Source: Callorhinchus milii
Lineage: Eukaryota
NCBI RefSeq assembly: GCF_018977255.1
Contig: NW_024704745.1
Span: 64,914,001-64,978,000, forward strand
DNA length: 64,000 nucleotides
Direction: 5' to 3'
Positions 45,779 to 45,874 of this stretch are shown in pieces. Both the position numbers and the translations under genes were made by a program. The first letter of the stretch is position 1. Each line of letters starts with the position of its first letter. The notes beneath the pieces were generated by a model. That model was not told the origin of the DNA. It worked only from the letters and a program-made list of their open reading frames with translations, and did not search any database.

Positions 45779-45874
45779 TCAATCCTGATATGATTTAACA
45801 AGCATCCACATGAGCAGCACAGTAATGACTACTACCATGAAATTAAGGAAGAGTTCTTGTGTGGATCGGTCCAT
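45779..45874 (-). CDS. SLN: Sarcolipin, 31-aa SERCA-regulating micropeptide
   Basis: gccATGG...TGA translates [31 protein letters not shown], matching SLN (human MGINTRELFLNFTIVLITVILMWLLVRSYQY). Acceptor tttatttcag puts the exon start at 46009. AATAAA on the - strand at 45041-45036. Minus strand, downstream of ELMOD1 as in human. Confidence 0.97.

What the first reader, a model, noticed from the sequence alone, without database searches (positions are those of the whole stretch)
45779..45874. Intact sarcolipin micropeptide invisible to the ORF track
Seen: 31 codons with strong Kozak (gccATGG), [31 protein letters not shown]. Known: SLN binds SERCA and uncouples Ca2+ transport, and is implicated in muscle non-shivering thermogenesis. 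Thr5 (phosphosite) and the LFLNF SERCA-contact motif are retained, while the luminal tail is KSYQD rather than mammalian RSYQY. Inference: if this is a chondrichthyan, SLN regulation of SERCA dates to the jawed-vertebrate ancestor and may bear on red-muscle endothermy in sharks. Such short ORFs are often unannotated.
Basis: partly seen in the sequence, partly recalled or inferred. Interest (0 to 1): 0.7.

Follow-up and report, generated by a model that had tools for sequence, protein, structure and literature searches.

The report
Ordinary sarcolipin gene of a chimaera
This is an intact sarcolipin gene, coding for a 31-residue peptide that likely tunes the muscle calcium pump, in a cartilaginous fish that is probably a chimaera; the peptide is already in public databases and carries the tail usual outside mammals, so the finding is ordinary.

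Summary
Real but ordinary. The 31-codon ORF lies on the minus strand (45874→45779) and reads as stated. It scores 67 bits to Pfam Sarcolipin against 18 to Phospholamban. It is the genome's only match over the cut-off; a separate phospholamban gene lies on another contig. Contigs of RNA-type runs show a spliced GT-AG intron and a poly(A) end. The neighbouring KBTBD3 falls sister to all six sharks and rays in the tree, so the host is probably a holocephalan.

The novelty claims fail. The exact peptide is already in NCBI and nr, and sarcolipin is annotated in five named sharks and rays. KSYQD is the usual non-mammalian type of tail: Lys27 in 53 of 60 relatives, Asp/Glu31 in 46 of 60, as already printed (PMC6011225). 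The warm-muscled white shark and a bamboo shark share one identical peptide, which argues against a coding change behind shark endothermy.

What remains: sarcolipin and phospholamban were already separate in the jawed-vertebrate ancestor, and RSYQY is likely a mammalian novelty. Translation, tissue and SERCA effect were not tested.

The parts
45779..45874 (-). Sarcolipin coding sequence, 31 codons plus TGA, wholly within the last exon
   Evidence: exact protein in NCBI/nr
45871..45877 (-). Start context GCC-ATG-G (G at -3 and +4); no upstream ATG in the 220 nt of spliced leader from exon A plus the last exon
44747..46009 (-). Last exon: 135 nt leader, coding sequence, about 1,030 nt 3' UTR
   Evidence: contigs of X1-X5 cover it and stop at 46009-46011; X5 has a 22-letter poly(A)-type loose end at 44747
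44763..44768 (-). Polyadenylation signal AATAAA, about 20 nt before the poly(A) end
46010..48716 (-). 2,707-nt intron, GTAATG...TTTCAG
   Evidence: joint 46009/48717 in X1 and X5; 19-letter loose end of X3 matches 48719-48737; the DNA-like run X11 runs on unspliced to 46320; ends read
48717..48801 (-). Non-coding upstream exon A (85 nt), preceded by a CAG acceptor, so a further exon may lie upstream
46354..47287 (-). Possible alternative non-coding 5' exon B, whose GTAATC donor at 46353 lies in a repeat copy; seen in one contig of one run
   Evidence: record 9 of X2; donor; repeat cover 46327-46404

Best explanation
This is the single sarcolipin (SLN) gene of a cartilaginous fish that is probably a chimaera, transcribed as a spliced, polyadenylated RNA and likely translated into a 31-residue membrane peptide that would sit on the SERCA calcium pump and slow calcium re-uptake in muscle. 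Shown: intact ORF, family match, single copy, spliced and polyadenylated RNA-type contigs, a separate phospholamban gene, SERCA-type exons in the genome. Inferred from mammalian work: residues about 7-26 form the transmembrane helix in SERCA's M2/M6/M9 groove; Asn11 contacts M6; the pump's apparent calcium affinity and turnover fall; Thr5 phosphorylation relieves this; the KSYQD tail anchors the helix at the luminal face. In a cold-bodied animal the likely job is tuning relaxation and calcium loading, not making heat.
For: Pfam Sarcolipin 67.1 bits vs Phospholamban 17.9. PDB sarcolipin E 6e-10 vs phospholamban E 0.6. One match over cut-off among 16 listed in G000; the second is a full 52-aa phospholamban, 110.9 bits. 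16 of 31 positions are identical in all 60 relatives, including E7, L8, N11. One hydrophobic 19-mer from residue 8, mean Kyte-Doolittle 2.67. GT-AG joint and poly(A) end. SLC35F-family exons lie about 45 kb upstream on the same strand, and protein P0102 is a gene model fusing SLC35F to sarcolipin, which shows the same adjacency elsewhere. SERCA M6 exons occur at three places in G000 (one checked against PDB, E 4e-38). Mechanism from passages of PMC8396278 and PMC8626070.
Against: No translation, tissue or biochemical data. The runs are labelled RNA only by guess and their tissues are coded. The tail lacks Arg27 and Tyr31, which have been proposed as essential for inhibition by mammalian SLN (PMC6011225), and deleting Tyr31 weakens the effect (PMC8626070), so inhibition may be weaker. 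The direct joint was seen in 2 of 4 runs, both of study P1. Placement as holocephalan rests on one gene tree with no named holocephalan in it.
Confidence: 0.93

Rival explanations
1. It is a thermogenic uncoupler whose sequence bears on warm red muscle in sharks.
For: SLN uncouples SERCA in mammalian assays (PMC8626070). Opah deep red muscle is reported to have a three-fold higher SLN:SERCA ratio (as cited in PMC7499911). Whether SERCA heat adds to lamnid warmth is called unknown (PMC9300183). Glu7 and an acidic residue 2 are kept.
Against: The host branches outside the six sharks and rays sampled; holocephalans are ectotherms (own knowledge). One identical SLN sequence carries the names Carcharodon carcharias (Lamnidae, regionally endothermic) and Chiloscyllium punctatum (Hemiscylliidae; ectothermy from own knowledge). 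SLN was not upregulated in warm deep muscle of bluefin tuna (PMC7499911). Frog and zebrafish share the N-terminal motif (PMC6011225).
Confidence: 0.04
2. It is a transcribed but functionally weak or untranslated SLN, since it lacks Arg27 and Tyr31.
For: Removing the mammalian tail abolishes inhibition (PMC8396278). A horse study reports abundant SLN RNA with minimal protein (PMC7711957, title and abstract start only). Candidate exon B holds 17 ATGs.
Against: 26-29 of 31 residues are identical to 9 non-mammalian SLNs compared, across sharks, rays, teleosts and tetrapods, which implies strong purifying selection on the peptide. The exon A leader has no upstream ATG and the start context is strong. 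Tyr29 is kept in 59 of 60 relatives.
Confidence: 0.02
3. It is a phospholamban or myoregulin paralogue, or a chance ORF.
For: Weak Phospholamban match, 17.9 bits, below cut-off; 12 of 29 residues match the genome's own phospholamban.
Against: Sarcolipin score is far higher; a true phospholamban lies on contig C3; no other Pfam family matched at E 0.1.
Confidence: 0.01

Closest known systems
Elasmobranch sarcolipins: Carcharodon carcharias XP_041055769.1 cluster (same sequence named Chiloscyllium punctatum), Cetorhinus maximus XP_078400994.1, Leucoraja erinacea XP_055493014.1, Pristis pectinata XP_051882605.1
   Same: 26-27 of 31 identical; Thr5, LFLNF and the KSYQ-acidic tail
   Different: They end in Glu31 and have Leu16-Met17; the window has Asp31 and Val16-Ile17. 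All differences but Asp2/Asn2 in Pristis are conservative.
Non-mammalian bony-vertebrate sarcolipins, e.g. Candoia aspera XP_063160540.1, Monopterus albus XP_020475601.1 cluster
   Same: 29 of 31 identical, with the same KSYQD tail
   Different: Two aliphatic swaps each (positions 14 or 16, and 24)
Mammalian sarcolipin (PDB 3w5a_C, 1jdm_A; Eutheria cluster P0059)
   Same: Length, helix, Thr5, Glu7, Asn11, Tyr29; 25 of 31 identical to P0059
   Different: Arg27 and Tyr31 (RSYQY) and Thr13 in mammals, against Lys27, Asp31 and Met13 here. No Cys9 as in 3w5a_C, so no acylation at that site.
Phospholamban (Pfam PF04272)
   Same: Homologous transmembrane helix, LFxNF motif
   Different: 52 residues with a cytosolic domain and no luminal tail; a separate gene in this genome (L002:1492-1647, minus)

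Membership tests
Sarcolipin (PF05366) | Profile score above the curated cut-off and above sister families | tested here: met
   67.1 bits vs cut-off 26.4; Phospholamban 17.9
Sarcolipin (PF05366) | About 31 residues: short cytosolic end, one transmembrane helix, 5-residue luminal tail | tested here: met
   31 aa; hydrophobic 19-mer from residue 8; ungapped match to solved SLN. Topology itself is inferred.
Sarcolipin (PF05366) | Thr5, Glu7, Leu8, Asn11, Tyr29 kept | tested here: met
   all present; identical in 59-60 of 60 relatives
Sarcolipin (PF05366) | Orthologous locus (next to SLC35F2, near KBTBD3) | tested here: met
   SLC35F exons upstream on the same strand; KBTBD3 in the window; SLN and KBTBD3 locus tags 7 and 8 apart in Hymenochirus and Ascaphus
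Sarcolipin (PF05366) | Spliced mRNA with non-coding upstream exon and the ORF in the last exon | tested here: met
   runs are RNA by guess, but the GT-AG joint and poly(A) end are marks of processed RNA
Sarcolipin (PF05366) | Expressed in striated muscle and translated | not testable with these tools
   tissues are coded and contigs give no level or translation
Sarcolipin (PF05366) | Binds and inhibits or uncouples SERCA | not testable with these tools
   SERCA-type exons are present; no assay
Mammalian-type SLN (RSYQY tail) | Arg27 and Tyr31 | tested here: not met
   Lys27 and Asp31, the majority state among 60 relatives
Phospholamban (PF04272) | 52 residues with a cytosolic phosphorylation domain; score above cut-off 25 | tested here: not met
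   17.9 bits, 31 aa; no in-frame upstream Met in the 54-codon open frame

The most novel reading that the evidence does not exclude
With sarcolipin in a holocephalan, sharks, rays, teleosts, amphibians and reptiles all ending K-x-Y-Q-acid, that tail is the ancestral jawed-vertebrate state and Arg27/Tyr31 are a mammalian gain. The ancestral peptide slows SERCA without uncoupling it, and heat-making uncoupling came with the RSYQY tail. The chimaera peptide is the natural outgroup for that assay. The tail hypothesis was already raised in PMC6011225; only the chondrichthyan polarity is added here.
Probability: 0.25. Interest if true: 0.45.

Novelty: already known. Interest (0 to 1): 0.12.

Why it matters
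Little, as a discovery: the gene and peptide are already in public databases and the tail state is in print. It has modest value as a reference point. It places the sarcolipin/phospholamban split before the last common ancestor of jawed vertebrates, a point I did not find stated in the papers searched (mostly listings, passages read in four). It also gives an outgroup peptide for the open question of whether the mammalian RSYQY tail is what makes sarcolipin thermogenic. That white shark and bamboo shark share one peptide means any role in shark endothermy would have to lie in expression or in SERCA.

Tried and rejected
1. No holder was on record as RNA: 'no RNA holder listed'. Ten of 14 rows are RNA by guess; I relied on the splice joint and poly(A) end, not on labels or depth.
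2. The 97 letters at the 5' end of the X1 contig were not found in the window, in 24 fetched loci including 80 kb on each side, or with up to 7 mismatches upstream. One exact 27-letter match lies on contig C50 but diverges right after and has no GT donor. The first exon and promoter remain unplaced.
This is no evidence of absence, so an origin older than jawed vertebrates stays open.
4. The other 14 weak Sarcolipin-profile matches in G000 were below cut-off; 3 of them were translated (L004-L006) and look like chance; the rest were not read.
5. Shared contig length for SLN and KBTBD3 hits in 12 of 13 taxa is weak: I picked the taxa by eye after seeing the tables, and several contigs are whole chromosomes. 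The Puntigrus contig (797 kb) and the locus tags are the informative cases.
6. MEF2, CArG and TATA pattern counts had no chance control and were not used.
7. Complex or structure prediction was not run: SERCA-SLN is a solved pair and a pass would add nothing.
8. Four primary papers were not held (PMC3605661, PMC4854186, PMC7017432, PMC4358104), so tail mutagenesis is cited through reviews. Supplements of PMC5507634 were not opened and may hold further SLN alignments.
9. Two long ORFs nearby had no Pfam match and remain unidentified.
10. No earlier findings near this place.

Full report
Observation. The plus strand at 45779-45874 has a stop. The minus strand gives [31 protein letters not shown] and TGA, in the context ACAGCC-ATG-G. 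The window has 257 ATG-started ORFs of 25-40 codons, so size alone is uninformative. This one scores 67.1 bits on Pfam Sarcolipin (E 1.1e-18, cut-off 26.4) and 17.9 on Phospholamban. In the PDB it matches sarcolipin chains at E 6e-10 and 1e-9 and phospholamban only at E 0.6-1.2.

Copy number and paralogue. A Sarcolipin-profile search of the own genome listed 16 matches, one over the cut-off: this locus. The second is a complete 52-residue phospholamban on contig C3 (110.9 bits). The two genes are therefore separate in this lineage.

Already recorded. The exact peptide is held by NCBI, NCBI nr and eukprot. A homologue search with the 54-codon open frame returned 60 other proteins, all with the Sarcolipin domain. 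Four are from sharks and rays and carry five species names: Cetorhinus maximus, Carcharodon carcharias, Chiloscyllium punctatum, Leucoraja erinacea and Pristis pectinata. Chondrichthyan sarcolipin is thus routine annotation. A word-free search gave 48 unnamed hits, all sarcolipin-like.

Host. The large KBTBD3 exon (31172-32773) is 79-82% identical to the six named shark and ray proteins and at most 74% to bony vertebrates among the 120 listed. In a tree of the window protein and 22 named proteins picked from those 120, it joins the elasmobranchs (100/100) and sits outside all six (96/92). Chondrichthyes has two named subclasses, so the host is probably a holocephalan. The 0.99 Gb genome fits this (own knowledge: shark genomes are larger). 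No named holocephalan was in the tree, and it is one gene.

Locus. The order is an ELMO_CED12-like exon (13593-13814; weak, 21 bits, below cut-off; 1 of 84 ORFs scanned), KBTBD3 (26471-32776, plus), sarcolipin (minus), SLC35F exons about 45 kb upstream on the minus strand (L012) and a Ras-family exon (L014). Protein P0102 is a gene model fusing SLC35F to an RSYQY sarcolipin, so the adjacency recurs. SLN and KBTBD3 locus tags are 7 apart in Hymenochirus and 8 apart in Ascaphus. The names ELMOD1, ALKBH8, CWF19L2 and RAB39A for neighbours are recalled from the human 11q22 block and come from no call.

Transcript. Fourteen runs hold the stretch; none is on record as RNA and ten are RNA by guess. 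I laid seven of the 14. X1-X5 cover the last exon and stop at 46009-46011, X9 covers two short pieces, and the DNA-like X11 runs through. X1 and X5 (2 of 4 runs, both study P1) join 46009 to 48717, skipping 2,707 nt with GT...AG ends on the minus strand; X3 (study P2) has a 19-letter loose end matching that exon. X5 has a 22-letter poly(A)-type end at 44747, about 20 nt after AATAAA. The exon A leader has no upstream ATG. One X2 contig instead joins the last exon to 46354-47287 through a GT donor in a repeat copy. Tissue, level and translation cannot be read from contigs.

The tail. Among the 60 relatives, position 27 is Lys in 53 and Arg in 7; position 31 is Asp or Glu in 46 and Tyr in 2; KSYQD occurs exactly in 10, and RSYQY only in the two mammalian entries. 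The set favours close relatives and under-samples mammals, so these are not frequencies in nature. PMC6011225 (section 6 read whole) states that Arg27 and Tyr31 occur only in mammals and that other vertebrates have Lys27 and Glu/Asp31. PMC6170647 and PMC5684175 (passages) note the bird KSYQX tail.

Mechanism. Shown: ORF, family, single copy, processed RNA-type contigs, and SERCA-type M6 exons at three of six P-type ATPase matches (one checked at E 4e-38). Inferred from mammalian work: a tail-anchored peptide with helix 7-26 in the M2/M6/M9 groove, Asn11 to Thr805, lower calcium affinity and turnover, relief by Thr5 phosphorylation (PMC8396278 passages); C-terminal residues anchor the inhibitory topology, and deleting Tyr31 weakens uncoupling (PMC8626070 abstract and passages). 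Sixteen of 31 positions are identical in all 60 relatives. I commit to calcium-handling control in muscle, at about 0.9. Whether a Lys27/Asp31 tail uncouples the pump was not tested here, and I found no such assay in the listing.

Endothermy. The host falls outside the sharks sampled. One identical sequence carries the names of the white shark (Lamnidae, regionally endothermic) and a bamboo shark. Bluefin tuna showed no SLN rise in warm deep muscle, whereas opah is reported to have a three-fold higher SLN:SERCA ratio (PMC7499911 passages). PMC9300183 (passages) calls SERCA heat in lamnids unknown; PMC5585156 (passages) points to mitochondrial proton leak in mako. An expression-level role in lamnids stays open but is not informed by this window.

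Literature on age. A bioRxiv preprint (10.1101/2020.07.19.211243, passages) says sarcolamban, SLN and PLN descend from one gene over 550 million years, so peptide control of SERCA is far older than jawed vertebrates. Searches for sarcolipin with shark (35 papers, 30 listed), cartilaginous (1), elephant shark (2), lamprey (6) and Callorhinchus (0), and for lamnid with SERCA (3) showed no title on chondrichthyan SLN. Most were seen as listings only; subscription papers are not covered, and supplements of PMC5507634 (passages only) were not opened.

Verdict. The gene is a known sarcolipin orthologue with the usual non-mammalian tail. Novelty: already known. Interest 0.12.

Noticed in passing
window 46354-47287, minus: One X2 contig uses this stretch as 5' exon, spliced from a GT donor inside a repeat copy; it holds 17 ATGs, and exon A is barely covered in that run. 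It may be an alternative leader or an assembly path through unspliced RNA.
   Followed up: partly
5' end of the X1 contig, beyond window 48802: 97 letters that map neither to the window nor to 80 kb on each side; one 27-letter match on G000:C50:203607-203633 diverges at once. Could be a distant exon, an assembly gap or a chimeric contig.
   Followed up: partly
L002:1492-1647, minus (G000:C3): Complete 52-residue phospholamban with the RRAS motif.
   Followed up: partly
L030 and L031 (G000:C10, about 6.3 kb apart): Two near-identical SERCA M5-M7 exons in tandem, differing at a few residues: duplicated exon, tandem gene or assembly duplication.
   Followed up: no
L009:2364-8852, plus (2.4 kb past the window end): A 2,163-codon open frame between SLN and the SLC35F exons, on the opposite strand; its start looks coiled-coil-like by eye; no Pfam match.
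   Followed up: partly
window 40357-41007, plus: A 216-codon open frame in non-repeat DNA between KBTBD3 and SLN, no Pfam match; possibly an exon of an unidentified gene.
   Followed up: partly
window 26471-32776, plus: KBTBD3 sits between an ELMO-domain exon and SLN; in the human order as I recall it, it lies further off, so the local order may differ.
   Followed up: partly
window 45974: G>A difference (plus strand) in the SLN 5' leader in contigs of X4 and X5, not X1 or X2; likely an allele.
   Followed up: no
window 52266-57066 and others: Broken LINE-type reverse transcriptase frames (recognised by eye) and short repeats; about 23% of the window is repeated within itself.
   Followed up: no
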